This document shows positions 1,709 to 53,842 of a stretch of DNA of 64,000 bases, in pieces. Under the pieces are notes generated by a model. The model ran no database searches, was not told where the DNA came from, and was given only the letters and a program-made list of their open reading frames with translations. The stretch's first letter is position 1. Each line of letters starts with the position of its first letter. Made by a program: the position numbers and the translations under genes. Origin of the DNA: Nanobdellati archaeon (GTDB taxonomy: Archaea > EX4484-52 > GLR71); assembly GCA_019429005.1 (NCBI GenBank), contig JAHYJR010000003.1:7961-71960 (forward strand). Reading direction: 5' to 3'.

Positions 1709-3424
1709 TTATTTAGAATTCTCAACTGAATCTTTTGACGGTTCTATTCCAGTACCGTGTAATTCCTTTAATTTATAATAATTAGCTCTAACTAAATCAT
1801 AAACCTCATCAATCTTAGGATATGACTTTTTCTTAAGTTCAGCATATTCATTTAAAATATCCTGATATAAAGACTGTGTTTTACCTATATCCTTAGCATC
1901 TACCGCCTTATCAAAATCAGACATCAATGAATCAATCTTTGCTTTATCAGCATCATTATCAACAACTGGTACCGATTCAGACCCATCTGTAACTTCTTGC
2001 GTCTCACCTTCAGACTCTTCCACCTTTTTACTTTCAGCATCAGAAGGTAATGGTGTTTCAGATGAACTTTGGATTATATTATCTGATGATTGTATATTTT
2101 CATATAATGCTTTGATTGAAGAATAAATTACATGAACTCTTGGATTCTTATCATTCTGTAATTGTTTATAAATATCAATAACCCGTAAATATAACGTTTT
2201 TGCCAAAATTGTATTTCTTTCAGCTAATGCATTATTTGCTTGTGTAAGCATACCATATATATCCGTTTCAACTTGATCTAAGGATGGTATTAATGGCACA
2301 ACAGGTATATCTTTAGGCATAACTTGATTCGTACTTATAGCAAATTTAGGTGCTGTTTTCTCAACATGAATATGATGCTGTTTCTCAACCTCAAGCAATG
2401 CTTTTCCAATATCTTCAATAGAATGTTCAACTTCGTTATATTTATCAGATATATCTTCAACAGATTTCTGTTTTTTTTCAATATCTACAAGATTTAATGT
2501 CATCTCTGACAATTTAAGCATAATATTATCAACAGAACTCTTAAGCAAAGCAGTACCTTTAGTATAATCATCTTTAGTCACAAGACTTTTGGATTTAGTA
2601 TCAAGAGAATCAATTTCAGATGTAAGATCATTTACAATACCATCAATATTATCAATCTTTTCTTGAGATTCTATCAATCTTGAAATCCTATCAGAAATAT
2701 CAGAATATAAACCTTCAACTTTTGCAGCCATACGACCTGTATATTGCTTATCCTCTTCAAGCTTTTTAACCTGATCACGAATTTTACCATAAACATCTGC
2801 AAGATTCTCAAAACTTCGTATCTTTGACATCTGTTCACGATATGCTTTTAACTCAGTTTTAATAGTATCAACAAAAATACTAACCTTTTCAATCTTTACA
2901 GTATTATCAATAATCATTTTTTCTTTCTCATTAAACAATTTCTCAATGCGCTGTGGATCAAAACTTCGAGCCATATCACTTATTTTTTCATAACCCATCT
3001 GTATTGAATTAAATGTCTTTTCACGATCAAGAATCATAGACCTAAGTTCTCCAATCTCTTCAGTAAGCATAGATATACGCTCATTTAATGCATCTCTAGT
3101 ACCAACCTCAGCCTCAAGCTTACCTTCAAGCTTCTCAACCTTTAATGTCATATCATCTAGACTTTTTGATAAAATAAATACTTTTGAATATAAATCATCC
3201 TTAGGGACTGATAATTCTTCTTCAACTTTATCAGAAGTGTCCTCTTTCTTTTTACCAAAAATCTTATCCATAAGACCTTCTTTTTTTCCAAAATCAATTT
3301 CAATTTTATTGAAATCATCTGATGTAAGGATATCTGATTCTCGCTCATCAGTATTAGTTTCTTTAGAATCCGCTGCAGACTCATCTTTTTTAATCTTATC
3401 TGCATCATCAGCCATACATACCAC
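1709..3424 (-). CDS. Acidic coiled-coil protein (571 aa), cytoplasmic, function unknown
   Basis: Long ORF with long heptad-like, charged stretches and an acidic N- and C-terminus. No TM segment. It is co-directional with and 133 nt downstream of the ATPase-fused surface-protein gene. Confidence 0.6.
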   Translation of the reverse strand: MVCMADDADKIKKDESAADSKETNTDERESDILTSDDFNKIEIDFGKKEGLMDKIFGKKKEDTSDKVEEELSVPKDDLYSKVFILSKSLDDMTLKVEKLEGKLEAEVGTRDALNERISMLTEEIGELRSMILDREKTFNSIQMGYEKISDMARSFDPQRIEKLFNEKEKMIIDNTVKIEKVSIFVDTIKTELKAYREQMSKIRSFENLADVYGKIRDQVKKLEEDKQYTGRMAAKVEGLYSDISDRISRLIESQEKIDNIDGIVNDLTSEIDSLDTKSKSLVTKDDYTKGTALLKSSVDNIMLKLSEMTLNLVDIEKKQKSVEDISDKYNEVEHSIEDIGKALLEVEKQHHIHVEKTAPKFAISTNQVMPKDIPVVPLIPSLDQVETDIYGMLTQANNALAERNTILAKTLYLRVIDIYKQLQNDKNPRVHVIYSSIKALYENIQSSDNIIQSSSETPLPSDAESKKVEESEGETQEVTDGSESVPVVDNDADKAKIDSLMSDFDKAVDAKDIGKTQSLYQDILNEYAELKKKSYPKIDEVYDLVRANYYKLKELHGTGIEPSKDSVENSK

Positions 3425-3557: not shown

Positions 3558-6500
3558 TTATTTTTTCTGAAGTTTCAAAACATTATCTTTCAAAGTATTT
3601 ATATAAATTTCAGCCATCCTAAACCGACCTTCTTTCAATTTATCTTTTGCTAATTTTAATTCAAGCAAGATATCGGACACATCAATACCTTTTGCTTCAA
3701 GATCATTAATATCCTTTTCAAGAGCCTCTAATACTTTAGCAAAAGCATAATATTGATTAAGATCTTCTTCAGGTATTTTATGGGGACTATGCAATGTTGG
3801 CCTAAAACTGACAAACCATGGCTTACCATCATTATAATGCGGATTTTGTATCATAGCAGTACCGATTGCTTCTCTAGAAATTCTACGTGCAAATTCCTCA
3901 CCGTACTTACTTTTAATTTTATTTATATCTTCCATACTTTTTGTATTAAGTTGGATTTCACTAAGGATATTACCTGCAACAGCCTCTTTAAAATCAGCAG
4001 ATACCTGAGACACCATTATAAGACCAATACCCCATTTACGAAATTCACGACATGCTTTTTCAAGAGCGATATATCCACCTTTACCACCATATTTTTCTAA
4101 AAGCCTATGAACTTCATCAAACACAATCAAAAGACGCATCTCGGGAGATTCATCCCAATGCATTGCAAAAATAGTATCAACAATTTTCATCACAGCCTGA
4201 TCATATTCACCTGGACCAAGCTTATTCAAATTAAAAACTGTAACTTCACCAGGATTCATATATTTCTTAAAATCAACTTCAACATCAGGCGAATCTACAT
4301 CAAAAATCATACCTTTAAAGGGTTTTGCATCTTCAAGATTCATATTGAAATCAGCATATTTTGAAGTTAAATTTACATCTTTACAAGCTTTTACAAATCC
4401 TGTCCATTGACTTGTTGGATCAAATATAACAACAGGTATTTTTTTAAGAAGTGCCTCTTCAACAAATATACTTGCAGTAACACTCTTACCACTACCAGTA
4501 CTCCCTGCAACAAGCATATGGGTTGTAATGTCATCAGGATTATACCACGCTTTGATATCAGTTTCTGCAATTTTTCCAATACTAAGTGCTCTTTCAGATT
4601 TCATTGGAAGTTTAGTATAATCCAAAGGAAATACATATCTTGCCTTATCTTTTTTACGTTTTGCAAACCATTTACGAACATACCACATTCCACCCCCTAA
4701 TATTATTGAGAATAATAAGAAGGTTGATGTCATTATACGGTCTTTTGTCCAGAATACAAGAAAGACATTGAATGATTTAAAAGTACTACCTATCTCCTCA
4801 CCATTATAAAGCGCATAAATTTCCATCACATAATTACCTTCAGGAAGTCCAAAATCGGGTATTGAAAATGATTGAATCGTTGAATTAGAAGATTTTAAAA
4901 ACATTGTTGAATTAAAAGATGCAAAGATGTCATCTGAATCTATTTTTTTTACATTATATATTAATGTAAGCTCAAAACTCTCCATATAACCATTATTATA
5001 AGCTGTAAGCTGTATTTTCATTTCTTCTTCAATATTAAGGTTTGAAGGCAAAAGATCCATTGACATAGTTATTAAAGAAACCTTGTCAACAGAAACAAAC
5101 AATGAAATTGGAACACGTGTCATTTTACCATCTGCATCAAAAATAAGATTTCCAGAATATACACCAGGAACAGCATCAATAGGTACCGAAATTTTCAATA
5201 TGTTTGAAACTTTACTCTTATTATCAATAGATTGTGTAACAGATTTAAAAGAAACAAATTCTTCAATATTTTTACTTGCTGTTACCCTAAGAATATATAT
5301 TTTTTCGTCCATATTATTTAATATAGTAAAATTAAAAATCTGTTTAGACCCTGGTGTTATCACAATTTCAGATAATGGTAGATTGACCGAAACAGCACCG
5401 ATAAGACAATCCATAGGACAGTTCTGCTTACTTTCATCAGTTTCACAAATATAATTACCACAATATGTTGTATAACAATCATCTATACAGGTTAATTCTT
5501 CTCCAGGCTCACACACACGATTACCGCATACAGCACAATCTTCAGGACAGTTAATACCATCCTCACCAAAACCACAGACCCTATCACCACAATAAGATTT
5601 TGATCCGCCAGATGAATAAGGAGGCACTATTGGTACTTCTTCTTTATCTTGACTAGATGTTGTCTCTTGAGACACAACAAACGCAGAACTGAAGGTCAGA
5701 TTATTTCCACCAAGATATGTAAAGATTATCTTATTAATTGAATCAACAACAGTATCTTTAGATACCCATATAATATCATATAACCAATCATCATTAAAAG
5801 GAAGCAAACAATTTCCTAAAGGACATTCAAATATTGTTGTCTTCAATGTTTGTACAAACGGATTATTTGAAAAATTAAGATATATAGAGGAATTATCATA
5901 AGGCCTATCTGAACTAAAAGCAAGACCAATTAATTTTTTATCTGTATACACATCAGGAAGATATGCTTCACTAAGAGATGGCCTTAAACTAATATTATTA
6001 TAAATCGATTGAAGATAAAGTGGATTCGTTATATTTGATGTGAAATTAAAAAAATCCATATTATTAAATTTAATCCTATGCACATCATTAATTGTCTGAA
6101 GCGTAACAATTGATAATACATCATAACCTCTAGAATAAATTATATCTGAAATATTTGCACTTGAACTATTAAAACTAAAATTATAAACTAATTGATCATC
6201 TACAAAATTTGTACCAGGACGATATAAATACAATTTGCTAGACATATAATTACCGAGAATTTCTGAAGGATACTGATACAATGTTGTAGTTTTTGGCTCA
6301 GAAATAACAAACATATGCGATACATTTGATTGAAACGAAGCATTTGTGATATTACCAGAAACAATATTGCCTGACGTTATATTTACCGAACTTACCAATA
6401 TATTCCAACTACCAATACAATATTCTGAGGACACATTCCAAGAAGAACATTCAAAAAATTCTATGGCTTTAGGATTATCACCACCCGTAATATTTGAATT

Positions 6501-7727
6501 ATGCATATAACCCATAGATATTTTTACAGAAGAATATTCAAAATAATTCTTAGATAAAATTGCAGATACAGTATAATTCAAATAAGACACATTATCAGAA
6601 ATATCTATATTATCTATAGACACATTATCAAAATAAACTGAATCAATTATCTCACTAGCACCATCACCACCTTTAATATTTGCAGATTCAGTAAGATTGA
6701 CATCATAAAAACTAAATAAATAAGATTGACCATTATGTAAAACTGAAATAACTATATCATAAACAGCTTTCCGAGCAGTATCATTATATGATGTATTTGA
6801 TGAGATAATACTATACAATTCTTTTGAAGTTCCCGGTCTATAAAATGTAAAATTTATATATACCTCACTGCTTACATTTTGAAACTCACTGATATTCCCA
6901 AGAAAATGAAGCGGAAAATATGCTTCAAACCATTCTGAATCCGAAATAACATTCCCACTTGTGTCTACACCATACAACACAATATCATACTCACCAATTA
7001 CAGAAACATTATAATCTATAACCCATAACCCTCCAGAATCAGATAAATTAATAATTGATTGAAATGATGTATTCTGAAAATCATAATTAATCTCAGCCCA
7101 AACATAAGATACATTAATATTATCTGTAACATTTGCAATAATTGTTATATTCTCATAAATATTTACAGAACGGTTCACAGCTAAAGACTGTATCACTGGT
7201 AATATATTATCATATAACGTAGACACAACAGTATTACTATCCATATAACTAACATTATCTGCCGTATTTAGAAACCATGTAAAATTACCTATTTTATTTG
7301 GAGTAAAAGCATCAAACCAAACATCTAAAGATTGTCCTTCAGTAAGATTACCTGTTGTAGTATTACATATAATAACTGCAACATTAATGCCAGTATCATT
7401 TTGAGAAAAACAAGACCAATTTACATTAGATATATTTATTGTAGATTGATTAACTAAAAAATAAGAATAACTCGAACCATTTTGAGGAACATTTATTACA
7501 ATCTCATAAATTGTATCATTTGAACCTACACCATTTGTCACACCAAAATTAAATAAAGCAGATGTATTTACAAGAACAGAAGTACTGCCACCATTAATCT
7601 CAAAAGAAACATCTGAACTATGCAAAGCATACACAGACGATATAAACACAAGATTAATTAAAACTAAAAAAAAACTTATACTAAAAAGAGCTTTAAAAAA
7701 TATAGAACATCTATTTTTAGTATTCAT
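3558..7727 (-). CDS. Large type-I membrane surface protein (about 1,390 aa) with a C-terminal cytoplasmic HerA/FtsK/VirB4-superfamily P-loop ATPase domain. Paralog of the C-terminus of the upstream giant gene.
   Basis: ATG at 7727 with SD AGGTG (plus-strand cacct, 7737-7741) 10 nt upstream. The listed ORF start at 7739 is GTG. Signal peptide FFKALFSISFFLVLINLVFISSVYA. The ectodomain is dense in N-x-S/T sequons. Triple Cys module (YCGDRVCGFGEDGINCPEDC / AVCGNRVCEPGEELTCIDDC / YCGNYICETDESKQNCPMDC, about nt 5403-5600). TM helix FLLFSIILGGGMWYV (about nt 4688-4740). Then Walker A VAGSTGSGKS, Walker B LLIVFDEVH, and FRKWGIGLIMVSQVSADF. Confidence 0.85.
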   Translation of the reverse strand: MNTKNRCSIFFKALFSISFFLVLINLVFISSVYALHSSDVSFEINGGSTSVLVNTSALFNFGVTNGVGSNDTIYEIVINVPQNGSSYSYFLVNQSTINISNVNWSCFSQNDTGINVAVIICNTTTGNLTEGQSLDVWFDAFTPNKIGNFTWFLNTADNVSYMDSNTVVSTLYDNILPVIQSLAVNRSVNIYENITIIANVTDNINVSYVWAEINYDFQNTSFQSIINLSDSGGLWVIDYNVSVIGEYDIVLYGVDTSGNVISDSEWFEAYFPLHFLGNISEFQNVSSEVYINFTFYRPGTSKELYSIISSNTSYNDTARKAVYDIVISVLHNGQSYLFSFYDVNLTESANIKGGDGASEIIDSVYFDNVSIDNIDISDNVSYLNYTVSAILSKNYFEYSSVKISMGYMHNSNITGGDNPKAIEFFECSSWNVSSEYCIGSWNILVSSVNITSGNIVSGNITNASFQSNVSHMFVISEPKTTTLYQYPSEILGNYMSSKLYLYRPGTNFVDDQLVYNFSFNSSSANISDIIYSRGYDVLSIVTLQTINDVHRIKFNNMDFFNFTSNITNPLYLQSIYNNISLRPSLSEAYLPDVYTDKKLIGLAFSSDRPYDNSSIYLNFSNNPFVQTLKTTIFECPLGNCLLPFNDDWLYDIIWVSKDTVVDSINKIIFTYLGGNNLTFSSAFVVSQETTSSQDKEEVPIVPPYSSGGSKSYCGDRVCGFGEDGINCPEDCAVCGNRVCEPGEELTCIDDCYTTYCGNYICETDESKQNCPMDCLIGAVSVNLPLSEIVITPGSKQIFNFTILNNMDEKIYILRVTASKNIEEFVSFKSVTQSIDNKSKVSNILKISVPIDAVPGVYSGNLIFDADGKMTRVPISLFVSVDKVSLITMSMDLLPSNLNIEEEMKIQLTAYNNGYMESFELTLIYNVKKIDSDDIFASFNSTMFLKSSNSTIQSFSIPDFGLPEGNYVMEIYALYNGEEIGSTFKSFNVFLVFWTKDRIMTSTFLLFSIILGGGMWYVRKWFAKRKKDKARYVFPLDYTKLPMKSERALSIGKIAETDIKAWYNPDDITTHMLVAGSTGSGKSVTASIFVEEALLKKIPVVIFDPTSQWTGFVKACKDVNLTSKYADFNMNLEDAKPFKGMIFDVDSPDVEVDFKKYMNPGEVTVFNLNKLGPGEYDQAVMKIVDTIFAMHWDESPEMRLLIVFDEVHRLLEKYGGKGGYIALEKACREFRKWGIGLIMVSQVSADFKEAVAGNILSEIQLNTKSMEDINKIKSKYGEEFARRISREAIGTAMIQNPHYNDGKPWFVSFRPTLHSPHKIPEEDLNQYYAFAKVLEALEKDINDLEAKGIDVSDILLELKLAKDKLKEGRFRMAEIYINTLKDNVLKLQKK

Positions 7728-7731
7728 ATAT

Positions 7732-10700
7732 CTATACACCTAACTTAGTTAGATTTTCAGCAAGAGAATTGATATATATTTCGGCCATCCTAAATCTACC
7801 TTCTTTAAGTTTATCTCTTGCAAGTTTTAATTCAAGACGTATATCTGAAACATCCTTACCTTTCTCTGAAAGGATATCAATCTTAATTTCAAGATTATCA
7901 AGTTTTGTAGTAAATTCTTTATACCTATTAAGATCTTCTTCAGGTATCCTATGTGGACTATGCATTGTAGGCCTGAAATTAACAAACCATGGTTTACCAT
8001 CATTATATTTAGGATTCTGAACCATAGCAACCCCAATAGCTTGCCTTGATATCCTCTCAGCAAATTCACTACCATACTTGCTTTCAATTTTATTTATATC
8101 CTCTATACTCTTTGTATTAAGCTGTATTTCTGTAAGAATATTACCTGCAACAGCCTCTTTGAAATCTGCAGAAACCTGAGAAACCATTATAAGACCAATT
8201 CCCCATTTACGGAATTCACGACAAGCTTTCTCAAGAGCAACATATCCACCTTTACCACCATACTTTTCTAAAAGTCTATGAACTTCATCAAACACTAAGA
8301 ACAATTTAAGATCTGCAGATTCTTCCCAAGTCTCCTTAAATATTTTAGCAATAATTCTCATAACAGCTTGATCATACTCACCAGCTTTAAGCTTATCAAG
8401 ATTAAATACAGTAATCTCACCAGGATTCATATATTTCTTGAAATCAACATCAACATCAGGTGTTTCAACATCATATATAAGTCCTTTAAATGGCCGTGCA
8501 TCTGAAGGTTTCATATTAAAGTTAGAATATTTTGAAGTCAAATTTACATCTTTACAAGCCTTCACAAATCCAGTCCACTGACTTGTAGGATCAAACACAA
8601 CAACAGGTATCTTCTTAAGAAGAGCTTCTTCAACAAATACGCTCGCAGTAACACTCTTACCACTACCTGTACTCCCTGCAACAAGTATATGTGTTGTTAT
8701 GTCAGTTGGATTAAACCAAGCTTTAATATTTGTCTCTGCAACTTTTCCAATATCAAAATTAGTTTCAGATTTCATTGGAAGTTTAGTATAATCAACTGGG
8801 AAAACATACCTTGCTTTACTCTTCTTCTGTTTCTGATACCATGTGTATATATACCATGTAAGCATTACAGTTGACAATAAGATAATCCAATATCCAACGA
8901 TTCTGATTCTCATTGTATTCCAAAATGGTTTCATAATTGTAAATGCACTTGTAGCTGAAGCCATACGATTACCTTCATAAGTAATTATTGCTTCAACAAA
9001 ATAATTGCCATTCTCTAACTCAAGCTCTTCAAGAGCTATAATATTAATTGACGAATTTGACGAAATAACATTAAGATTTTCTGAAAAATTATAAACCATT
9101 TCAGAATTAAAATCTTTGATAAGATACAATACATCAACATTAAAATTCTGCTTAAAACCTTTATTATATATAATTATTTGAGTCTTAAGAGTACTATCAA
9201 CAGTCACTTCTTTAGGCATAACATCAAATACAACATCAAGGAATCCTGCACCACTATATGTTACAACAAGCCTAACAGGCATCCTCTTAACAAAACCATC
9301 ACCATCTAAAAGAATATCTCCTGAATAGGTACCTATTTTGGTCTTATTGCTAACTTGTAAAAATGCCCTATTTGAAACAGTATCTCTTGATAACAATGAC
9401 GTTTTAGCTAACTCAAACCGTATGAATGGTTTCAAATTATCAGACACATCAAAAACAAACTCACCAATATCAAGATCCATATTATTTGTCACTTCAAATG
9501 GATATGTTCTAGATTCGCCTGGATATAATATTACATCATTCAAATCAGTCTCAACACTGAAAGGTCCTTCAACACAATCAATTTCACAATTATTTTCATT
9601 TTCACCAATATCACAGATATAATTACCACAATATGAAAAGACACAATCTGAGAAACATGTGAATTCCTCACCAAATTCGCAAATACTATTACCACAGACA
9701 GCACAATCTTCAGCACAATTAAAACCATTCTCACCAGCAGTACAACTACCATCACCACACACATTAAGTGTTCCAGCTGTACTTGCCCCACTAGTTGAAG
9801 GCATAACAGCTTGCTTAAAACAAGAACCACAATATTCAACAGCAGCATATGCAGATGTCTGACTAGATACATAACTAATCTTATTATTAATCATATCAAC
9901 ATAACTTTCATTATCAACTGAAATAACTCCTGATTCTACACTTTGTTTCTTTATCCAACCTGATGAACACACACCACTCTGAATATCCCAATTAGCACAA
10001 CGATACATATCAATATTACCTTCGTAACTGATTGATTTTCCTGAATTTGAATAATCAAGAACAATTGTCATATTTGAAAAGATCATATCTGTATGCACAG
10101 ATATGGATGAAAGAGCTCCAATCTCAGCTGTCCTTTCAGGTAAAGATAATATAGACGGATCAACATAACCAATAAAGAATGGTGACTCAACAGATGTTGT
10201 ATTTATAAAACTTACATTACTAAATAATGCACTCCCATCAAAAGCACTAAGCTTAACATCATATAATCTCTGTCGCATAGTCTTATTATAAACCGCCGTA
10301 GAACTATTTTGTTCTAAACTTGAAAAATGATCAAGAACTAGATTTGTACCAGGTCTATAAAATACAAAATTAACAGCAATAGGAATAGCCGAGATATAAC
10401 TATTTGCACCATAATCTGTACTATAACCATTAAATCTTAATTCAGGATAAACATCAAAAATGCCCATCTCTTGAGACAAAAGACCATTAGTATCATTTGT
10501 AAAAAAGATAACATCGTAATCACCATAACCATATGTCTTATCAAACATAGCATCCCAACTATTTCCTGAAGATACATTAAATTGAGGTATATTATATCTT
10601 ACAGATGTAGGCTGGTATGATATATTAAGGTCATCAATCCAAACACTGCCTTCATTTGATGATACATTTAAAATTGCAGTACAGTTCCCAACAGATGTTA

Positions 10701-13700
10701 ATGTACATGAATCAAGATATGCTTCTAATGCAGATGTTTCAAGTGCTATATCAATCTTACTAGTATTTGAAAATTCGCCATCATAAGACCATAATACGTT
10801 ATCTGTACCAACAAGAGTTATTAAAATATTATCAGGAAACGGTGGTCCACTAACAGCCTGAAGTGTCATTGTCATATTTCGTATCTGCACATATTTACGC
10901 ATATCAAGATATACCATATGAGACGGTTGTGAATTAAAATTAACTACAACTGGCGATGCATTCACAAAGTTTGTAATTGTCTCATTTGGCATAAGTGTCA
11001 TATTAGGTGTTATATAATCTACATAAGCCCATACTGTATCAATACCAGCTTCATCTGTCACATTTATATCTAAAACGATAGTCTCATTTATATCTGCAGA
11101 AGATATATCTATATAAAGTATCTCAGGTTCATCTATATCTGGAACAACCTCAATTTGTATTGTTAGATTGTCCATACACCTTGATGCATTTTGACAAAAT
11201 GTCCCTGTAGCATTAAAAAGAACAACTGCGGTATATGTTCCAAATGACTGATTCAAAGGAACGCCAACACTAACAGATACAACATCATCAAATCTCTTTG
11301 TTATGCTTGAGATAGATACAGGTTCATATGTTAAAGACCAGTTAATATCCATATTTCCAGATGCTTTTGAATATTCAATAACCCAAAGATCTTCATTACC
11401 AGTTGCTCCAATAGTTACATTAAAGATTTTTGTTTCACCAGGAACAAGAGATGCGGTTATATTTTTTGAAGATGGTACTAATAAACTTAATTCTGGACTT
11501 GACAATACAATAACATTAGTCAAATTAAATAATGATGGACCTGGATATGTATTTGATTTTAACCATGAAATAATTCCTTTGATATCATGTGTATTTACAG
11601 TTGCATCAGCTGTAACATTAACTGTTAATACTTTATGACATATTGAACCTGGCGCTATGTCACCACAACTTATCTTATAGTTATCAACAAACGTGAAATT
11701 ATTTGGTACTAAAATTATGCCTTGAGTCGCATCAGGATCATATGCACTACCATCACGATATACTATAATATCCGAATCAAACATTGTACCATTACCAATA
11801 TTTTCAAGATCAAATGTTATATTAAATAGATATGTATTCAATGTTGAAATTTCATTTACATATTCTCTATCAGGTGACTGATATAAAACATAATCTGTAG
11901 TTGTTATAATTGTTATGTTTGAAACAAACACATTATCTGCATTAGGTCCATATACATCTACCGCATAAACACTAAGATCATATAATCCTTGAACCATATT
12001 ATTGAACGGGTCAACAGGTAAATAAACTCCGCTATATTGACCATCTTTAGTATTACCTGATATAAGAGTCAAATTAACTGTAACAAGATATGCACCTTTA
12101 GAAATTGTAGCATACGCATATGACATCATAACATCATCTGAAATGTTCGCAAGAATTGTAATATTATCCTTATTTACTTCAACTGAAATCTTATCAAGAG
12201 ACGTACCATAAATAATTGGTGCAACAAGATCCTTTACATCCGTTGTATCGTTAACACTAATTACTGATGCATTATAATACAATGTTTGATTATCTCCTAT
12301 TGAACACATCAATGTTGCAACACCAAGTTGTTCAGGTATCCAAGAGAATGTTGCATTACCATCTAAACCTGTTGTTTTTGAACCTACAATAACATATCCA
12401 GGTATTGTTGAATTATAATAATAAACAGATACAGGATAATCTTGAACTGACATATTATTCGATGAATCTTTAACACCACATTTCACATTATTGACAACAC
12501 CATAAACCATAGTGCTTGATATATTGAACACAGGTTCTGATGTACCTATTACGACCATATCTGTCTGAAGTACATTTGAAAATCCATATAAATCTTTTGT
12601 CGCATTAAAATATATTGTATAATTACCAACTTCAGCATTATCATCAATATTCCATAAGACATCACAATATGTCATTGAACCAGTTGAACAATTATCTATA
12701 AAATGTAAAGCAGACGTTGTCAAATTTTCATAATAAAATGCAACTACAGAATCTGTACCAATATCCCCAGTTTCTGTAGTAATATTCGCTGTGAAATTTA
12801 CAGTATAAGGTGTAGCAAATGCATCATCACGATATATCATATCAGACTGTTTTGATAGATTGATATATACCTTACCTAAAACCCTTATCAATTTAAAATT
12901 TTCTTTTAGACTTGCAAAATAATATTGAGTCATATTATCTGTAATATTACACATGAATGTATGATTTCCAGCAGTCTCATTTGTTGCATTCCAAACAACA
13001 TTTGCATAACCTAATGCATCTGTATAATTCATACCAACATCAATTGATTCATAATTACCTGTGTCATTTTTCACAAAGAACATAACAGAATAATTAGCAA
13101 GCACTCTTGAATCATTTGCATCTGAGACTTTACAGGTAACATCAATTAAACCTCTTTGAATATCTACTGATGGTGAAACAACCTCAACTTTTGACCATCC
13201 ATATAATGTAATATTTGTTGAATTTGTATCCTCAACATTATAAGGTGCAACAACTTCAGCTGTAAGTGTATAATTGCCAGGCAACTCATTATCAGCAACA
13301 TACCATAAATCATTCATATTTACAGTTGATAAGATTGTTTTTTCAATAACACCATTTGAAATATTCCAAGTTACAACAGGTGAAATTACAGAACCACAAG
13401 TATTATTGAACGTTGAATTAAGTGCCTGATTAAGACTCTTATATATATTATAATCTGTAGCATTTGGATAATCAATAATAATAGATAACACATCAACAAT
13501 ATCAACATTATATGATGTAATATTTAATGGAATCTTTGGCGAATAAAACATATCTGAATTTGAAGTTATTGAAACATTCACAATATATGCACCAACTGAA
13601 TCAGTACAATCTGTAGACCATGTAATATTACAGATTCCAGTTCCATTTGTTTTAGTGACTGTAACAGACTCACCGGGTATTTCCCAAATACAATTATAAT

Positions 13701-16700
13701 CAGGTATTACAGAACTATTATGATAATCATAAACTTTAGCTGTAAATGTTATGTTATCCATTCTTGTTACATTAGTTGCATTAGATACAGTCTCAATTGC
13801 AGAATGTCCCCAAACATAAACTGAAACATTGTTAGATATAAATGGTGTCTCAATATTAATATTATCATAATAATCCTCAGTTGCGCTTACATTAATTATG
13901 TATGCTCCATGACTTTTTCCAACTGGAACTGTCCACCATGTATCAGCAGTATTTGTAAATAGACTTTCTTGACTACCTGTACCATTTAATTCAAATGTCC
14001 AATTAACGCCGGCAATATTTATCTCAGCCAAATTTTCATCAGTAACAGACGAATTCAAATAAACTAATTCATTCTTAAATATTATCAGACCATCTGCAAT
14101 TCCAATTATATTAATCCCATATCGTCCATAAACATCAACAGATTCAGATGTTTCTCCTGCCATAAATATTGGCGTTCCTTCATATAACGCTAAATATTTC
14201 AATGTATATGTCCCAACTTCAGCAATATCCGTTATATTCCACAAAACACCGCATGTACCATTTTCATTCGTTATACAACTATCAATTGTATGATTTTGTA
14301 AATCAGTAAGGTTAAAATAATAATATGTAACATTAGTATTATTTAATGCAGTCGCATTATCATCAAAGACGGTAATATTTACAAAAGATTCAAACGGTGA
14401 ATACAAATCATTTCTATAAATCTTTTTAGGATCTGAATCAAACTCAACTGTTACAAACTTTATTTCAGAATCAAAACTATTTTGATTTGGAAGTGCATGA
14501 TAATAAAGAGTTGCATTATCTGTTATGTTACAAGTATAATTGAATCGTGTTCCTTCAATTGCTGATGAATTCCATGAGGTATATGCAATACCGCTAGCAT
14601 CTGTTACATTAGATGGCACTGTATCATTTGTAATATAAAACTTAACAGGATAATCTTTAACTAAAATTGCAGGTGTCGGATTATCTAAAACATTACATTT
14701 GAAATCAATCATGCCTTTACTATAATATCCACTCTTTGGCTCAGAATTAGAATAACCTACTTCAACCCAACTATATACAGTCTTATTAGTTGAAACATAA
14801 GATGTGAAAAAACCATCAGATGCTAAACTAATATTTAGACTCACATTTCCAACAATACTGATACTTCCAACAGGCCATGACAATGTAACTGTATCTCCAC
14901 TTGTCACAGTAGAACTTTTAGGCGAACCATCAACATAAAGATAATCATTTGTAACAATGCTTTCATCTAAAAGATTATTACAAGAATCTCTTAATACTAC
15001 TGAAATTATTACAAGATCTTTCTTATGCACTTCAGGCCTTTCGATAATATCGGGATAACCATAAGGAGGATTTACAGAACCACTAGTTCTAGATGACCCT
15101 AGTATATCAAATGTAGATATTGTACCATTTATTATTGAAGTTATACCAGATATGATTAAATCTGAATCAACAGTAGGTTCTGGCGTATAAAATTTGCCAG
15201 CATCTTCAAATATTTCAACACCAATTGTATGATTTCCAACAGTATCAACATCATCACCAGCACCTGGAACTGTATTACAATCAGTATACCACGTTACATT
15301 ACAATAACCTGATGCATTCGTCTTATGGACTTCAGTCCGTCCATCAAGAGTCCATGAACAATTATAACCTTCAAGTCCTTCAGAATAATTATGGAAATTA
15401 TATACTCTTGCGATAAATGTTAAATTATCAAGCTGATTATACGTCGAATAATTAACAGGCGCAATATATTCAATACCAGCTCGACCCCAAACAGAAACAT
15501 TAAACATTGACCATGTGATAGAATTATTATCATCAGTATCATCATAATACTGTTTTTGGGCTGTCAGATTAAGATAATATTCTCCAAGAGCCTGTGTCAT
15601 ATTAATTATTTGACTATCTAATACAATCGAAGTATTAAGGAACTCTATAACCTGTGACATAGATGTTCTATTTATAAGATTCCAAAAAATCCAATCTGGA
15701 GATGATTGAACAACAGCAAGACCATTTTCATCAATAATTGTTGCATTTAAAGGATATATAATATCCCTATAAAGCCTTTGATCAAATACAGGTGTAATTA
15801 TACTAGCATTAAATTTAGCCTTAACTTGTACAACAAAATTACCTATCACAGCCGGTTTAAAATATGCAGCTGTAGTATTATAATATATCTGATAATCACC
15901 TGGTTCAGCATTATACGAGATATTCCAAGTGATATTGCAATATCCTGGAACAGCTACAGTTGTATTGCATAAACCTATTGTGATATTTTGTAATGATGTC
16001 AGATTAGTATAATAAAACGCAACAGTTGAATTCACAACAAGATTAGTATTCTCATCTGTAACTGTCACATTTAACATTGTCTTAAATGGAATAAATGAAT
16101 CATTTCTATATATCATAGCTTCTTGACTTTCAGCTACAGAATATAATTGTCCTCTAAGATCTATTCCTTGTGTAGCTTCTGCTCTAGGTGCCCATGATGT
16201 GAAATTTAAAGTTGAATTACTTGTAATATTACATTTGACTATATGCTCACCAACCTGAACCTGACTTGCATTCCAATAATAAACCGCAAGACCAGAACCA
16301 TTAGTAAGATTCACATTAGATACACTCAGATTTGTATAATCATAAAACCCTGGAAGAGAATCCCAGAAATATACAGGATACTCTGAAATAGATTCATTAG
16401 TATGATTATCTGTCACATTACAATATATTGGTATTGTATTATTCCTATCAAAAAGCATATCAACAATTGGAGATGTCAAATTGATAACAGACCAACCCCA
16501 AATTGGCATGTTATAAATCTCATATGAATGCGTATCATAATATGGATGCATTGCAGTTGCATTTAAGGTGAAATTACCTATTGGATATGTTCCATTTATG
16601 TACCATAAATCTGTACCATTACCATTCTCAACTGAAAGGTCTGTCCAACCATTCCTATAAACGGTCCAATTAACAACAGGATCTGTAGACCTGTATGAAT

Positions 16701-19700
16701 TTGAATAGACAAGAGTGTCACAAGAATCTGTTATGTTAAGATCCATTAATACAGTTGTATCTTTATTAAGCTCATATATAGACGCGTTCGGACTTAATAT
16801 TGTAACATTAAGAGTATCTCGCAATATCAGATTAGTCTGTTTTGAATACTCACTTACTTCAGGAGTATAATATTTTGGTGCATCTTCATAGATTGTTACA
16901 TTTATGATATGGTTTCCAACCCAGTTATCACCAGTAGCCCAATTACTACAATTTGTAATCCAAGTGAAATTACAATAACCACTTGAATTTGTAACAGTGA
17001 CAACCTCAACACCATCATCAGTACGCCATGTACAATTATAATCTGACAATCCATCGTCTGAAACGCTATTATAATTATAGACTTTAGCGATATATATTAT
17101 ATCTGAATCACCACGATATTTTGATGTGTAACTATTGATTATATTGACAGCCGCCCTACCCCAAACTTCAACAGTCATATTAATTGAAGAAACACTTTCA
17201 TTTGTAATTATATCATCATAATAGATTTTTTCAACAGTAGCATTAAGCCAATATTGACCAAGATCTTGAGTCTTACTCAATGAATCATCAATAGAAATAT
17301 CAGTTGTATTTGATATTGAAGTCACATCAGATAAATCTGTAAAATTTAATATTGTCCAATTAATACTTGTCGCATTCATAAACCCAACAGAGTTTTCATC
17401 TAAAATATCAATTGTGAAATTATGTGTTTCATTCCGATATAGGCGCATACCATAATAATTATCTGTACTGCCATTTGGATACGCAATCACAATAATATCA
17501 GTCTTAGCTTTAACAATGATACTTTCAAACACATCACTTTGTGACGTATAATCAAGATTTTCTGCAGACGCGATTATAGTATAATTTTCAGGTGATTCTA
17601 GATCATTTATATTAAATAATATCTCACAAAGACCACTTGAAATGTCTGTAGTGTTACATACACCAATTGACTTTTCCATAGGCGACCAAGATGGTAATGT
17701 ATAATTAAGTGTGACTGTCGCATTTGAGATTGTCATATTAAGCTCATCAGTGATGTTGAATGTAATATTTGTAGTGAATGGCGAAAAAGAATCATTCCTA
17801 TATATCACAGGATATTCTATATCGGTTATATTGATGTAAAGTTTACCTTTAAGATCCAATGTGATATTATTGCTTGTATTGATTGGTGCTGTATAATATA
17901 ATGTGTAATTATCAGCGATACGACAAGCAACATAATGCGATCCTGCATTATACAAACTTGTATCCCAACTAAATATTGCATCACCAGTCAGATTTGTCAC
18001 ATTTGTACCGATAATGCTATATGTTGATGAATATTTATCCATATTAAGGAACTCAACCGGATATGATTCAATATTTTGACTTGTATTGAGATCAAGAACA
18101 TTACAGCTCATAAGTATTGTAGTATTCCTCACATAACTTGCAGACTGTGGAAGGTTAAGTGTAACATTAGCCCAACCAAATACAGCAATAATTTTAGATG
18201 ACATTGTTGAATTATAAAGATCTTTTGATGAAGTCACATTCATTGTGTAGTTACCAAGATTATGATTATAAGTAACATTCCAGGTATCATTCTGCAAAGA
18301 TCCAACAGATTCATACCAAATTGATGTTGTCTGATTGTATATATCCCAATTGACAACAGATGCCGAAACAGTATTACCACACTCATCCCTTACTTCAGAT
18401 ATAAGAGATGTACTATCATTTCGCTGTATAAGATAATATGATGGTTCAACAATTGTCACATCAAGAGCACCGGTTAAATTAGTATAAGTCTCATCATTAT
18501 TATCATTAGGAGCATTAGGCTCATAATTTAACATGCTTGTTGATGAAATATTTACTTTTGTAGTATGCTGACCGATAGATTGATTATCACCTTCATCCGC
18601 ACCAGCACCAGGATTTGAACAGCCTGTTAACCAAGTCACATTACAATAACCAGACGCATTTGTAGGTGTCAATTTCTGTTGACCATCATAATCCCAAGTA
18701 CAATTATAACCTAATATTAAAAGAGATGCATTAAATTTATCAGACACTTTCGCAATATAAGTTATGTTTTCACCCCTCTCTCTAGAATCATATTCTTGCA
18801 CAATATCAACAACAGATTTTGCCCATACATCAACTGTCACATTTGCATCTAAAACAGATGCATTACTTCCCATAAATTCATAATATTGTTTCCAAACTGT
18901 AAGGTTCACAACATTATCATACAAAGAATGATACGGAACAACAACAGATATATTCTGTGATAACGTATCAATAAGAGGTGTTATAAGACCTAATGACACA
19001 TTTACAATACTCCAATTATTTTGTGTATCATAAACGAAATTACCATTTTCATCTGTAACTGTCACATTAAACCAAGTCAAGTCAAGTGGATATTGCCTAA
19101 ATACAACCTCATTTGGATATGGACTTGTTATATTAATTTGGATTTTTCCTTTTACTAAAACATTTGTGAAATACTCACTTGAATTCTCATAAGTTGTAAG
19201 TGTGTGAGTCGCTTTATATCGAATATTATAATTATTTGGAACAATTGTTGCAACCGGATTCCAAACAACCGGATTTGTACAATAACCAGTAATGTTTGTA
19301 ATACAAGTACCAATAAGCTGGAAAACATCATTTGTATCATTATACCAATATTCTATTGTTGCACCATCTACAGAAGATCCAACATCAATCACTTTTGATA
19401 TGAACTTTGTGCTATATGGACCAGATGCAGGTAATGTATCATTCCTATATATCATAGTTTCAGTAACATTCTGAAGATCAACTTCCATTGACGCCGTCAT
19501 ATTAAGCTGAACACTTGAAACCACACGAGATGCCGTATAGTTCAAAGTTGAATTATCTGTAATATTACAATAAATTGTATATAGACCACCTTTGATATTA
19601 AGTGTATCCCATGTAAAATTAAAATAACCATCTGAATCTGTAACACTATAATTAATAAAACCAGATTCATTTATTGTCGCTGTTATAAGAGAATATGTTA

Positions 19701-44115: not shown

Positions 44116-44141
44116 CAAATTAACCGGATTTTTTAGTGTAA

Positions 44142-45281: not shown

Positions 45282-46328
45282 TTATTTAACAGATTGTGCT
45301 GAAATAGGCATATTTTCAACCACATACACATCATCAAACTTTACAAATAAAAGATATACAAATGACAAAATGCCTGTAAAAAACATCGCAATACGGAAAA
45401 AGAAAAACATTGTAAATGCAACCATCAAAGGATAAATAAACTTAATAATATCAAAAAGATTTGAAAGCATCTGTAAATTATTATCTACGCTGCTAGAAAC
45501 ATCTAAATCATCAAACGTGGAATCAATTAAATCAAACTGTGCATCGATATTAGCTTTGACATCCTTATCAATATAAACCATACTGCTATTCAGCGCAGAA
45601 AAACATTTCTGACGTTCCAAAGGCGTAAGTCCATAAGATTCATCAAAAACAGAGTACAATAAAGCCTGCTCAAGACCCTCAAGCATCGCATAATTTGCAT
45701 TTTTCTGAGACTCAATGGCTACACTCTGAATATCACCCAAATCATCTTCAGACATATTAAGTGTTGAGGTAAGCATAGAATCAATTTCATTTGATGCCAA
45801 AAGCGGATTATTAAAAACATATATTAAAAGAGCAAATGTAAAAATCAATGAAAACACAGAAAATGCCTTTGATAAAGCCACCCCTGCAAGTTTCTTATAT
45901 GGCGGTTTTTTATAAATATCAGAAATTTTTGCACCTTTAAAAACTATAAAAAATGAAATAAATACACTTAAACTTGCAACAATATTAAAAAACGTAAATC
46001 CACCAAAAAATAATGTGAAAATAGATAATAACAAAGGTGTTATAAGTATAGAATAATCGGATTTTAAATCAGCTATAACAATCTTAAAAAATATAATAAA
46101 AGGTATGGGCACAGTCAAAAGAAACATTATAAAATAACTGAAATTCATACCAAATGAAAAATCACCAGCAGACATTGCTGTAGAAATATTTGCACTAGGC
46201 GAGATAATCAAATCAAGATTAAAATGTGATAAGTATAAGAAAATAAAAGATAATATAAATGTAAAAACAACAAGCATAAGACCTTTATTTTTATCCATAA
46301 TGACAACCATTTTAATATTATTTATCAT
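45282..46328 (-). CDS. Polytopic membrane protein of unknown function. Its start overlaps the stop of the upstream IPT-repeat surface protein by 4 nt.
   Basis: At least 6 hydrophobic helices. 4-nt start/stop overlap with the 2,110-aa gene (translational coupling). Confidence 0.6.
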   Translation of the reverse strand: MINNIKMVVIMDKNKGLMLVVFTFILSFIFLYLSHFNLDLIISPSANISTAMSAGDFSFGMNFSYFIMFLLTVPIPFIIFFKIVIADLKSDYSILITPLLLSIFTLFFGGFTFFNIVASLSVFISFFIVFKGAKISDIYKKPPYKKLAGVALSKAFSVFSLIFTFALLIYVFNNPLLASNEIDSMLTSTLNMSEDDLGDIQSVAIESQKNANYAMLEGLEQALLYSVFDESYGLTPLERQKCFSALNSSMVYIDKDVKANIDAQFDLIDSTFDDLDVSSSVDNNLQMLSNLFDIIKFIYPLMVAFTMFFFFRIAMFFTGILSFVYLLFVKFDDVYVVENMPISAQSVK

Positions 46329-53510: not shown

Positions 53511-53652
53511 ATAAATTATAGCTTACAAGGTATAAAAATCTATCTTAAAGAACAAAAAATAATCTTTAACTTATAGAAAAAAACATTTGTCAAAATCAAA
53601 TAAAAAGTATCCAAAAAATAGACTAAAACAGTTTAGAACCCCTTACTAAAAC

Positions 53653-53762
53653 AGCTAAAAACAGATACAAAAACGACTAAAAACATATACAAAAACGACT
53701 AAAAACATATACAAAAACGACTAAAAACATATACAAAAACGACTAAAAACATATACAAAAGC
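53653..53762. repeat. 5 x 22-bp tandem direct repeat (gactaaaaacatatacaaaaac) with phased A5 tracts, between the S-layer gene 3' end and the minD start
   Basis: Units at 53675-53696, 53697-53718, 53719-53740 and 53741-53762, plus a degenerate copy at 53653-53674. A-tracts recur every 10-12 bp. Confidence 0.9.
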
Positions 53763-53780
53763 ACATTAAAAACTAAGATA

Positions 53781-53842
53781 AAATAAGAAAAAATAAATAG
53801 GGCGTTTAAGCCCTAAAAAATAAAATAAGGTTAAAAACCTTA
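53781..53842 (-). terminator. Two successive hairpin plus T-run terminators for the S-layer gene
   Basis: Hairpin 1 is taaggtt-aaa-aacctta (53826-53842). It incorporates the TAA stop and is followed on the coding strand by TTATTTTATTTTTT. Hairpin 2 is tagggc-gtttaa-gcccta (53798-53815), followed by TTTATTTTTTCTTATTT. Confidence 0.55.

What the first reader, a model, noticed from the sequence alone, without database searches (positions are those of the whole stretch)
7735..8940. Duplicated C-terminal cassette shared by the two ATPase-fused proteins (7735-8940 vs 3558-4760)
The last about 480 aa are about 85% identical between the two paralogs, with long identical nucleotide runs such as tattacctgcaacagcctcttt in both. 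The membrane-proximal triple-Cys module and beta-sandwich region upstream are also recognisably homologous. The ectodomains are unrelated in size and content. This looks like a conserved membrane/ATPase 'socket' onto which different ectodomains are grafted. The about 1.2-kb direct repeat, 33 kb apart, is a substrate for homologous recombination or gene conversion that could swap or delete ectodomains. The near-identical ATPase domains could also co-assemble into hetero-hexamers.
Basis: seen in the sequence. Interest (0 to 1): 0.6.

Follow-up and report, generated by a model that had tools for sequence, protein, structure and literature searches.

The report
Duplicated ATPase tail of giant archaeal protein
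Two neighbouring genes of a tiny symbiotic (DPANN) archaeon, one of them encoding a 12,128-residue surface protein, end in the same membrane anchor plus HerA-like motor ATPase; this is a new example of the already described but functionally unsolved "SPEARE" giant proteins, and the copies are old, selection-preserved duplicates rather than a currently recombining repeat.

Summary
Genes A (3558-7727, 1389 aa) and B (7732-44118, 12,128 aa) lie head to tail on the minus strand. They share a cytoplasmic C-terminal ATPase domain of about 363 aa (78% aa, 78.6% nt identity). The copies are 4,171 nt apart, not 33 kb. Upstream, a triple four-Cys module is 66% identical, and the rest of the stalk is 21-39% identical per 50-column window. 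The window comes from a GenBank 'DPANN group archaeon' MAG.

The cassette belongs to the published SPEARE giant-protein family: giant ectodomain, TM helix, ATPase and coiled-coil tip, with a second ATPase paralog gene immediately downstream. By sequence and predicted fold the ATPase is closest to HerA hexameric DNA translocases, not VirB4 or restriction enzymes.

A coiled-coil protein gene (1709-3415) follows the cassette in most related loci. In this window there is no sign of recent gene conversion: dS is about 0.8, and the longest identical run is 31 nt (p=0.30). Tandem pairs in other genomes do carry identical tracts of 97-491 nt.

Verdict: new member of a known kind. The recombination idea holds for the family but not for this locus. 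The hetero-hexamer idea is untested.

The parts
7732..44118 (-). Gene B: a 12,128-aa giant surface protein. It has an N-terminal signal-peptide-like hydrophobic segment, an ectodomain of ~11,700 aa, one TM helix, and a cytoplasmic ATPase with a coiled-coil tip.
   Evidence: Uninterrupted ORF. Hydrophobic segments at aa 15-42 and 11740-11758. There are 669 N-x-S/T sequons outside versus 2 inside. No Pfam family matches the first 8,000 aa; the rest gives only a sub-threshold Big_1 hit outside the ATPase. Divergent internal repeats with ~1,671-nt spacing.
7741..8823 (-). Copy 2 of the cassette: the cytoplasmic HerA-like P-loop ATPase domain plus C-terminal coiled coil of B (aa ~11766-12128).
   Evidence: tblastn with A's domain gives 78.7% identity over 361 aa. 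Pfam DUF87 1.8e-13, AAA_10 and HerA_C. Walker A is GSTGSGKS and Walker B is VFDEVH.
8839..8907 (-). Transmembrane helix of B (aa ~11738-11760), followed by the basic stretch QKQKKSKAR on the cytoplasmic side.
   Evidence: Hydropathy scan and sequence. The TM sequence is not conserved with A.
9574..9759 (-). Triple four-Cys module of B, three units of CGxxxCxxGExxxxCxxDC (aa 11454-11515).
   Evidence: Regex and coordinates. The 50-column window covering it is 66% identical to A's module. The same motif lies near the N-terminus of the 16-sequence family consensus.
3558..7727 (-). Gene A: a 1,389-aa paralog (GenBank MBW6451565.1, 'DUF87 domain-containing protein'). It has a signal peptide, an ectodomain of ~1,000 aa, a TM helix, and an ATPase with a coiled-coil tip.
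   Evidence: ORF. Exact match in the protein collection. 46 sequons outside versus 1 inside. Its start lies 4 nt after B's stop if the ATG is used, or overlaps B by 8 nt if the GTG at 7739 is used.
3561..4652 (-). Copy 1 of the cassette: the cytoplasmic HerA-like ATPase domain plus coiled-coil tip of A (aa 1030-1393 in GTG numbering).
   Evidence: Pfam DUF87 1.1e-11. NCBIfam best hit CedD 1.7e-14, far below its cut-off. AF2 model pLDDT 93.2. Foldseek top hit is HerA 4d2i at 1.9e-12.
4671..4739 (-). Putative transmembrane helix of A (aa ~1001-1023, TSTFLLFSIILGGGMWYV), followed by RKWFAKRKKDKAR.
   Evidence: Sequence. Modelled as a helix in AF2. It falls below the strict hydropathy threshold I used, so the assignment rests on position and flanking charges.
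5406..5591 (-). Triple four-Cys module of A (aa 717-778).
   Evidence: alignment.
1709..3415 (-). Gene D: a 568-aa cytoplasmic coiled-coil protein (GenBank MBW6451564.1) and the conserved downstream partner of the cassette.
   Evidence: 100% match to K0B02_02440. tblastn hits in 69 of the 80 locus files held (L001 and L006 are the same contig), downstream of the ATPase wherever coordinates were printed, once on the opposite strand (L007). In ORF clustering it is the only robust conserved neighbour: 58 loci, median +15 nt, 57 on the same strand. AF2 gives an all-helical model with long helices, pLDDT 65 and pTM 0.22.

Best explanation
The locus is a three-gene surface module of a DPANN archaeon of the published 'SPEARE' type.
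- Gene B encodes a Sec-exported giant fibre, probably heavily N-glycosylated, held in the membrane by one TM helix. Its cytoplasmic tail is a HerA-clade (FtsK-HerA superfamily) P-loop ATPase ending in a coiled coil.
- Gene A, immediately downstream, is a short version of the same protein. It looks like a tandem copy of the 3' ~4 kb of the giant gene, with the same stalk repeat types, Cys module, TM helix and ATPase.
- Gene D encodes a cytoplasmic coiled-coil partner.

Shown:
- The 1.1-kb 'direct repeat' is the ATPase-coding part of the two paralogs.
- It is similar because the ATPase is under strong purifying selection (dN/dS about 0.18) on an old duplicate (dS about 0.8).
- There is no sign of recent recombination at this locus.
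- Across the family, the neighbouring cassettes are homogenised from time to time by gene conversion.

Inferred mechanism (not shown):
- Like other HerA/FtsK ATPases, the cytoplasmic domains assemble into a ring under the membrane and use ATP to move a polymer through the ring.
- DNA is the most likely substrate, by analogy with HerA, FtsK, CedB and CedD.
- This would couple contact made by the extracellular fibre with a host cell to import or export across the symbiont's membrane.
- The short paralog may supply most ring subunits while the giant one supplies the tether.
For: Family identity:
- The ATPase domain is 53-57% identical over 97% of its length to nanohaloarchaeal proteins. These include SG9 AQV86_02330 (P0082), which carries a locus tag listed among the SPEARE proteins in PMC6642349, and a Ca. 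Nanohalococcus occultus protein (P0057).
- PMC6642349 and PMC10266531 describe the same architecture and the same downstream ATPase paralog.

Conserved arrangement:
- 13 tandem 'large plus short' loci among 79 genome loci plus the window, and one more in metagenomes.
- D lies downstream in 69 of the 80 locus files held.

HerA assignment:
- Pfam DUF87, HerA_C and AAA_10.
- PDB sequence hits are led by HerA proteins.
- AF2 pLDDT 93.2. In the Foldseek top 50, 47 hits are HerA-containing entries, and the rest are the coupling protein TcpA and DndH.
- NCBIfam best hits are CedD, HerA and CedB.

Topology:
- Sequon counts are 669 versus 2 in B and 46 versus 1 in A.
- Hydrophobic N-terminal segments, a TM segment, and a basic stretch on the cytoplasmic side.

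Age and selection:
- dS 0.80, dN 0.12-0.16.
- Longest identical run 31 nt, p=0.30.

Origin of A:
- A's ectodomain scores best against B's own stalk (327 bits, versus 238 for the next best).

Family-level conversion: and the tree.

Both copies keep the Walker A and B residues that are invariant in 77 family members.
Against: - No substrate, oligomeric state or partner interaction was tested, so DNA translocation and ring assembly are analogies.
- The domain lacks HerA's N-terminal HAS-barrel, and no NurA-like nuclease is nearby. It is therefore not a canonical HerA.
- Foldseek TM-scores are only about 0.5.
- Many genomes carry a single large copy without a short paralog. A mixed ring therefore cannot be obligatory.
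- 'Partial tandem duplication in this lineage' and 'ancient duplication plus old conversion' cannot be separated, because dS in the ectodomain is saturated.
- A's TM helix is only moderately hydrophobic.
Confidence: 0.7

Rival explanations
1. The repeat is an actively recombining or gene-converting direct repeat at this locus. Its high similarity reflects recent DNA exchange that can swap or delete ectodomains.
For: The copies are in direct orientation, 4.17 kb apart, with 1.09 kb of homology. Other genomes show clear conversion tracts between the equivalent cassettes. Seven of 13 tandem pairs cluster by genome. Identical codons among identical residues are somewhat more frequent in the ATPase (about 70%) than in the stalk (about 58%), from counts I summed by hand from the windows.
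Against: In the window, nt identity is 78.6% and the longest perfect match is 31 nt, no longer than expected from shuffled codon columns (p=0.30). dS is about 0.8 along the whole domain, with no low-dS tract; sliding windows give 0.50-2.1. The best-matching stretches coincide with the most conserved protein motifs.
Confidence: 0.1
2. The cassette is a VirB4/TraG-type ATPase of a type IV secretion system that injects effectors into the host through the giant protein. This is the proposal of Reva et al. 2023.
For: The cassette belongs to the same superfamily. There are weak Pfam hits to TrwB_AAD_bind and T4SS-DNA_transf and NCBIfam hits to VirB4-like, TraC, TraD and TraG models at E 5e-5 to 0.07. 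PMC10266531 reports a CagE/TrbE/VirB N-terminal domain in the nanohaloarchaeal short paralog.
Against: PF03135 was not found in A or in B's C-terminal 1,022 aa at E<=0.01. The VirB4- and TraG-type hits cover only ~30-75 residues, mostly around the P-loop, and score 12-22 bits against cut-offs of 325-800. No VirB4 appears in the Foldseek top 50, whereas HerA entries fill 47 of the 50 places. No other T4SS component was recognised among the window's ORFs. The only conserved neighbour is a coiled-coil protein.
Confidence: 0.12
3. The cytoplasmic domain is a type III restriction-enzyme-like helicase or nuclease that degrades imported host DNA. This is the original SPEARE proposal of Hamm et al. 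2019.
For: Pfam ResIII hits at E 1e-4 to 5e-3. PMC6642349 makes this assignment.
Against: ResIII scores are 17-22.6 bits, at or below the 22.5-bit gathering score, and lie under stronger DUF87/HerA hits in the same P-loop region. No nuclease domain was detected. Fold matches are to HerA translocases. PMC10266531 also found no endonuclease domain.
Confidence: 0.03
4. The duplication is an assembly artefact, in which a repeat-rich giant gene was mis-joined or a collapsed repeat was resolved wrongly.
For: The source is a MAG contig, and giant repetitive genes are hard to assemble.
Against: The two copies differ at 21% of nucleotides and both ORFs are intact. The same giant-then-short-then-coiled-coil order recurs in independent assemblies from several lineages.
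Confidence: 0.02

Closest known systems
SPEARE giant surface proteins of Nanohaloarchaeota and their downstream ATPase paralog (Hamm et al. 2019, PMC6642349; Reva et al. 2023, PMC10266531: SVXNc_0300/0299, BNXNv_0298/0297, Ca. Nanopetramus SG9 proteins)
   Same: - Signal peptide, huge ectodomain, single TM helix near the C-terminus, then a conserved cytoplasmic P-loop ATPase with a coiled-coil tip.
- A second gene with the same ATPase lies immediately downstream.
- The ATPase is 53-57% identical to nanohaloarchaeal members.
- Hamm et al. already noted similar sequences in Woese-, Aenigm- and Micrarchaeota and in Altiarchaeales.
   Different: - The host is a low-GC (~31%) 'DPANN group archaeon', not a nanohaloarchaeon.
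- At 12,128 aa the protein is longer than the 9,409-aa protein reported as the largest in cultivated archaea.
- No laminin-G, protease or WD40 domains were detected.
- The downstream paralog has an ectodomain of ~1,000 aa rather than ~190-370 aa.
- In the papers read here I saw no mention of the Cys module, the coiled-coil partner gene or the conversion tracts; no dedicated literature search for these three features was made.
HerA hexameric DNA translocases (Sulfolobus HerA 4d2i; HerA-NurA; Sir2-HerA and DUF4297-HerA defence complexes)
   Same: - Best sequence and fold matches.
- RecA-like P-loop core with Walker A and B motifs.
- Works with a partner encoded next to it.
   Different: - There is no HAS-barrel; a TM helix precedes the core instead.
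- No nuclease or Sir2 partner is present.
- The protein is membrane-anchored with an extracellular part.
- TM-score is only about 0.5.
CedD/CedB of the crenarchaeal Ced DNA-import system (PMC11823120; bioRxiv 10.1101/2024.09.27.615246)
   Same: - Membrane-bound FtsK-HerA superfamily ATPases acting as a pair of paralogs.
- Both are needed for DNA uptake from a partner cell.
- CedD is the best NCBIfam hit.
   Different: - The score is 53 bits against a 600-bit cut-off.
- No CedA, CedA1 or CedA2 was recognised.
- Ced ATPases carry no ectodomain.
FtsK/SpoIIIE and conjugative coupling proteins (TrwB, TcpA, TraB)
   Same: - N-terminal membrane anchor plus a C-terminal hexameric pumping ATPase.
- TcpA is the first non-HerA fold hit.
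   Different: - Only weak sequence hits, below the Pfam cut-offs.
- One TM helix and a giant extracellular region instead of a polytopic anchor.

Membership tests
SPEARE-type giant surface proteins (DPANN) | Most of the length is extracytoplasmic, with a single TM helix toward the C-terminus and the C-terminal region in the cytoplasm | tested here: met
   Hydrophobic N-terminal segment and one C-proximal TM segment. Sequon counts are 669 versus 2 in B and 46 versus 1 in A. A basic stretch follows the TM helix. No dedicated signal-peptide or TM predictor was available.
SPEARE-type giant surface proteins (DPANN) | Conserved intracellular P-loop domain homologous to that of nanohaloarchaeal SPEARE proteins | tested here: met
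   53% identity over 97% coverage (E 1.6e-144) to SG9 AQV86_02330, and 56% to a Ca. Nanohalococcus occultus protein. The SG9 locus tag is listed among SPEARE proteins in PMC6642349.
SPEARE-type giant surface proteins (DPANN) | Second ATPase paralog gene immediately downstream of the giant gene (Reva et al. 2023) | tested here: met
   A starts 4 nt after B's stop. The same order is seen in 12 other genome loci and one metagenome locus.
SPEARE-type giant surface proteins (DPANN) | Recognisable adhesion domains in the ectodomain (laminin-G, Ig-like) | tested here: inconclusive
   No Pfam hit over the first 8,000 aa. Elsewhere only sub-threshold Big_1 and Ig_VWA7 hits. No structure prediction of the ectodomain was run.
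SPEARE-type giant surface proteins (DPANN) | [quoted passage not shown] | tested here: not met
   No protease or nuclease family was found. ResIII hits are at or below the cut-off and lie under HerA/DUF87 hits.
HerA (FtsK-HerA superfamily, HerA clade) | RecA-like P-loop core with a HerA-type fold and Walker A/B motifs | tested here: met
   DUF87, HerA_C and AAA_10 above or near their cut-offs. Foldseek gives 4d2i at E 1.9e-12, and 47 of the top 50 hits are HerA-containing entries. Motifs are seen.
HerA (FtsK-HerA superfamily, HerA clade) | N-terminal HAS-barrel domain | tested here: not met
   The TM helix directly precedes the core. The AF2 model shows no barrel N-terminal to the P-loop.
HerA (FtsK-HerA superfamily, HerA clade) | Operon partner nuclease (NurA) or defence effector (Sir2, DUF4297) | tested here: not met
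   None was recognised among the window ORFs. The conserved neighbour is a coiled-coil protein.
HerA (FtsK-HerA superfamily, HerA clade) | Hexameric ring with a central pore that translocates DNA | not testable with these tools
   Only monomer prediction was available.
VirB4/TraG type IV secretion ATPases | CagE/TrbE/VirB N-terminal domain (PF03135), VirB4-type core, and T4SS partner genes | tested here: not met
   PF03135 is absent at E<=0.01. VirB4-like NCBIfam hits score 20-22 bits against cut-offs of 325-590 and cover ~45 residues. No VirB4 appears in the Foldseek top 50. No T4SS genes were recognised.
CedD/CedB DNA-import ATPases | Score above the NCBIfam equivalog cut-off, and co-occurrence with CedA/CedA1/CedA2 | tested here: not met
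   CedD scores 53.4 bits against a 600-bit cut-off, and CedB 23.3 against 700. No Ced partner was recognised in the window.

The most novel reading that the evidence does not exclude
The giant protein and its short paralog co-assemble through their near-identical HerA-like domains into one mixed ring under the membrane. A few giant 'tether' subunits would sit among several short 'filler' subunits, which solves the steric problem of packing six 11,700-aa ectodomains. The ring would be docked to the conserved coiled-coil protein D. Selection for ring compatibility, helped by occasional gene conversion, would keep the two cassettes alike within each genome. The machine would pull DNA or another polymer across the symbiont membrane at host contact sites. 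That would make it a new kind of contact-dependent uptake or export apparatus, distinct from type IV secretion and from the Ced system.
Probability: 0.25. Interest if true: 0.7.

Novelty: new member of a known kind. Interest (0 to 1): 0.4.

Why it matters
SPEARE-type giant proteins are the most conspicuous candidate host-interaction factors of DPANN archaea, and their function is still unknown. The published proposals conflict: a restriction enzyme, or a VirB4/TraG secretion ATPase.

This locus extends the family to a non-halophilic DPANN lineage with one of the longest archaeal genes on record.

The comparative work done here adds three testable points:
- The motor is HerA-like rather than VirB4-like.
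- A coiled-coil protein is its near-universal genomic partner.
- Tandem motor cassettes evolve in concert in several genomes, which fits the idea that the two proteins act in one assembly.

None of this changes the category of the finding. It sharpens hypotheses for a known but unsolved system.

Tried and rejected
- Recent gene conversion at this locus was rejected. The evidence is the permutation test of the longest identical run (p=0.30) and dS of about 0.8 with no low-dS tract.
- The VirB4/TraG and ResIII assignments were rejected on Pfam and NCBIfam scores and on fold ranking.
- An assembly artefact was rejected because the copies are 21% diverged and the arrangement recurs elsewhere.
- Rfam and tRNA scans of the window found nothing.
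- Pfam found no family for the first 8,000 aa of B's ectodomain, and beyond that only a sub-threshold Big_1 hit. It gave only sub-threshold Ig-like hits for the membrane-proximal module. 'Beta-sandwich' therefore remains unverified.
- A self-BLAST of B as one sequence gave no off-diagonal hits. Tiling into 300-aa pieces was needed to see the repeats.
- The look-up of encoding contigs had no record for D. B is too long for the cluster look-up.
- The metagenome scan found no relative above 72% identity. Population variants and chimeric junctions of this locus therefore could not be examined.
- The AF2 model of D was too poor (pTM 0.22) to justify a fold search. Its NCBIfam hits (SMC-related, Rad50, SpiroCoCo) are generic coiled-coil matches far below their cut-offs.
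- PAN, ParA and the other window neighbours are not conserved next to the cassette elsewhere. The proteasome-activator link suggested for Nanohalococcus was therefore not pursued.
Full report
**What is in the sequence**

Positions 1,700-44,100 of the window hold three co-directional minus-strand genes.
- B is 7732..44118, 12,128 aa.
- A is 3558..7739 from a GTG start. The GenBank protein starts at the ATG at 7727 and has 1,389 aa.
- D is 1709..3424; the database protein has 568 aa.

B's stop and A's ATG are 4 nt apart.

The window is AT-rich, about 31% GC. Its other genes are archaeal housekeeping genes: PAN, Kae1, TtuA, a ThiI/THUMP-domain protein, ADP-PFK, LeuA and an S-layer protein. D and A match GenBank proteins MBW6451564.1 and MBW6451565.1 exactly. 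Both come from a 'DPANN group archaeon' MAG, on a 143,923-bp contig.

**Check of the observation**

The C-terminal homology is real. blastp aligns A505-1390 with B11253-12126 at 49% identity over 904 columns. A residue-level map splits this into parts.

| Region | A coordinates (aa) | Identity to B |
|---|---|---|
| Cytoplasmic ATPase plus coiled-coil tail | 1030-1393 | 78% aa, 78.6% nt over 1,089 nt |
| TM helix | ~1001-1023 | not conserved |
| Membrane-proximal region | 781-996 | 24-34% per 50-column window |
| Three tandem four-Cys units (CGxxxCxxGExxxxCxxDC) | 717-778 | 66%, all 12 Cys aligned |
| Further upstream | 494-716 | 21-39% per window |

The quoted 22-mer occurs exactly twice, 4,171 nt apart. 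It encodes the family-wide motif KEAVAGNI.

- The highly similar block is about 363 aa at 78%, not 480 aa at 85%.
- The DNA repeat is about 1.09 kb.
- The copies are 4.17 kb apart, not 33 kb.

The ectodomains are not unrelated. Tiles of A's ectodomain hit the last ~1,500 extracellular residues of B at 25-39% identity. A's ectodomain also scores better against B's stalk than against any other genome's protein.

**What it is**

Both cassettes hit Pfam DUF87 (HerA central domain), AAA_10 and HerA_C. Hits to FtsK, TrwB, T4SS and ResIII are weaker or sub-threshold.

A search of 5.8 billion proteins returned 348 relatives (120 listed). The named ones come mainly from Woese-, Aenigm-, Nano- and Nanohaloarchaeota. 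They include SG9 AQV86_02330 and proteins of Ca. Nanohalococcus occultus and Ca. Nanohalovita haloferacivicina.

The literature identifies this family.
- Hamm et al. 2019 (PMC6642349) named the giant nanohaloarchaeal proteins SPEARE. They placed most of the protein outside the cell, with one TM helix near the C-terminus. They found the cytoplasmic portion to be the most conserved part, and reported similar sequences in other DPANN lineages.
- Reva et al. 2023 (PMC10266531) re-annotated the cytoplasmic part as a VirB4/TraG-like ATPase followed by a coiled coil. They also noted that the next gene downstream encodes another ATPase of the same family.

The window therefore holds a new, non-halophilic member of a described architecture, including the paired arrangement.

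**Topology**

Both proteins begin with a hydrophobic, signal-peptide-like segment. N-x-S/T sequons number 669 in B's ~11,740 N-terminal residues against 2 in its tail. In A the counts are 46 against 1. The TM segment is followed by a K/R-rich stretch. This fits an N-out, C-in type I topology with a glycosylated ectodomain.

B's ectodomain has no Pfam match. It consists largely of divergent repeats spaced about 557 aa (1,671 nt) apart.

**Which ATPase**

An AlphaFold2 model of A's TM-to-C-terminus region, built on a 77-sequence alignment, is confident (pLDDT 93.2, pTM 0.91).

Foldseek against the PDB ranks HerA-containing entries in 47 of the top 50 places. These include Sulfolobus HerA 4d2i (E 1.9e-12), Sir2-HerA, HerA-NurA and DUF4297-HerA. 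The other three places go to the coupling protein TcpA (twice) and DndH. No VirB4 is among them.

PDB sequence hits agree. NCBIfam's best hits are CedD, Thermoproteota HerA and CedB, all far below their cut-offs. CedB and CedD are membrane-bound FtsK-HerA paralogs required for DNA import in Sulfolobales.

The domain is thus a HerA-clade motor that lacks the HAS-barrel and is anchored by a TM helix. Walker A and B residues are invariant in all 77 aligned members, including both window copies.

**Family context**

A pattern scan of one genome per GTDB species gave at least 566 confirmed stretches, and 79 loci were kept. In these loci the domain is the C-terminal end of ORFs whose upstream part ranges from ~190 aa to more than 3,300 aa, and many run off the fetched flank. 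One Woesearchaeota MAG has a 15,808-aa member.

An exhaustive HMMER search of 1.84 billion representatives found 353 clusters at E<=1e-30. In the 150 listed, the domain lies at or near the C-terminus of most proteins, which are 270-7,900 aa long.

Thirteen loci, including the window, are tandem: a large gene followed by a short paralog. One more was found in metagenomes.

D has tblastn hits in 69 of the 80 locus files held. In unbiased clustering of flanking ORFs it is the only robust conserved neighbour: 58 loci, median 15 nt downstream, 57 on the same strand. Its model is all-helical with very long helices, but overall confidence is low.

**Recombination or gene conversion**

Within the window, Nei-Gojobori estimates for the ATPase are dS 0.80 and dN 0.12-0.16. 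Sliding windows give dS 0.50-2.1 and show no young tract. The longest identical run, 31 nt, is not longer than in shuffled codon columns (p=0.30). The similarity is therefore explained by purifying selection on an old duplicate. At 78.6% identity the repeat is a poor recombination substrate today.

Elsewhere the picture differs.
- For most tandem pairs, the two copies are more alike than either is to any other genome's copy, and seven pairs are sisters in an NJ tree.
- Several pairs carry mosaic tracts of perfect DNA identity: 491 nt in L053, 106 in L001, 104 in L041's relative L004, 97 in L041, and 116 in L081. None of the permutations reached these lengths.

Within each genome examined, the short paralog's ectodomain is also closest to its own giant neighbour's stalk. 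The short gene therefore looks like a copy of the 3' part of the giant gene. My data cannot say whether that reflects repeated duplication or long conversion.

**How it most likely works**

Shown:
- A three-gene module conserved across archaeal lineages.
- An extracellular giant fibre and a cytoplasmic HerA-like ATPase joined by one TM helix.
- Two catalytically intact paralogs.
- Purifying selection on the motor.

Inferred:
- The motor domains form a ring under the membrane, as HerA and FtsK ATPases do.
- The ring uses ATP to move a polymer. DNA is the leading candidate, by analogy with HerA, FtsK, CedB and CedD.
- This links host contact by the fibre to transport.
- The short paralog may fill ring positions, and D may dock on the coiled-coil tips.

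None of these steps was testable here.

The rivals are a T4SS VirB4/TraG ATPase, a restriction enzyme, an actively recombining repeat and an assembly artefact. They are weighed in the rival section and are less well supported.

**Novelty and verdict**

The architecture and the adjacent paralog are published, so this is a new member of a known kind. New elements from this analysis are:
- the HerA-clade assignment by fold;
- the conserved coiled-coil partner;
- the juxtamembrane Cys module;
- the evidence for concerted evolution in several genomes;
- the absence of such evolution at present in this one.

Interest is moderate. The system is biologically important and unsolved, but the specific finding is an expected feature of it.

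Noticed in passing
window 53625-53778 and 56750-56891: Two arrays of 22-nt A-rich tandem repeats (about 5-7 units each) flank the S-layer gene (53840-56323, minus strand). One lies just downstream of its stop and one upstream of its start. They could be phased bent DNA or regulatory repeats of a highly expressed gene.
   Followed up: no
window 46325-52657 (repeat at 46505-46639): A third large surface protein (2,110 aa, TIG domain) lacks the ATPase cassette. It ends in a TM helix and a cytoplasmic tail with (HGAVA)x8, encoded by a near-perfect 15-nt tandem repeat.
   Followed up: partly
window ~12400-30000 (inside gene B): The giant ectodomain is built from divergent super-repeats spaced about 1,671 nt (557 aa) apart. 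It has no Pfam match over ~11,700 aa.
   Followed up: partly
L046 8160-9236 and 10031-11107 (Nanohaloarchaea archaeon B1-Br10_U2g21): The tandem ATPase pair is 96.7% identical in protein but only 84.9% in DNA, with dS about 1.6 and no long identical run. The two proteins track each other without DNA identity, unlike the conversion tracts seen in L053 and L001.
   Followed up: partly
L001 1-10004 and 15145-22100 (Woesearchaeota MAG GCA_021734865.1): The gene-call table lists a 15,808-aa member of the family, followed by a short paralog, a D homolog and a further ORF of more than 4,143 aa. It is larger than the window's protein and than the 9,409-aa protein reported as the largest in cultivated archaea.
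   Followed up: partly
window 45282-46328, 56995-58782, 61931-62902: Three ORFs of 323-595 aa have no Pfam or NCBIfam match.
   Followed up: no
one search hit list (e.g. P0215, P0221, P0222, P0242): Some family members carry the ATPase domain in the middle or near the N-terminus, with a long C-terminal extension. This may correspond to the 'reversed' SPEARE topology mentioned by Hamm et al. 2019.
   Followed up: no
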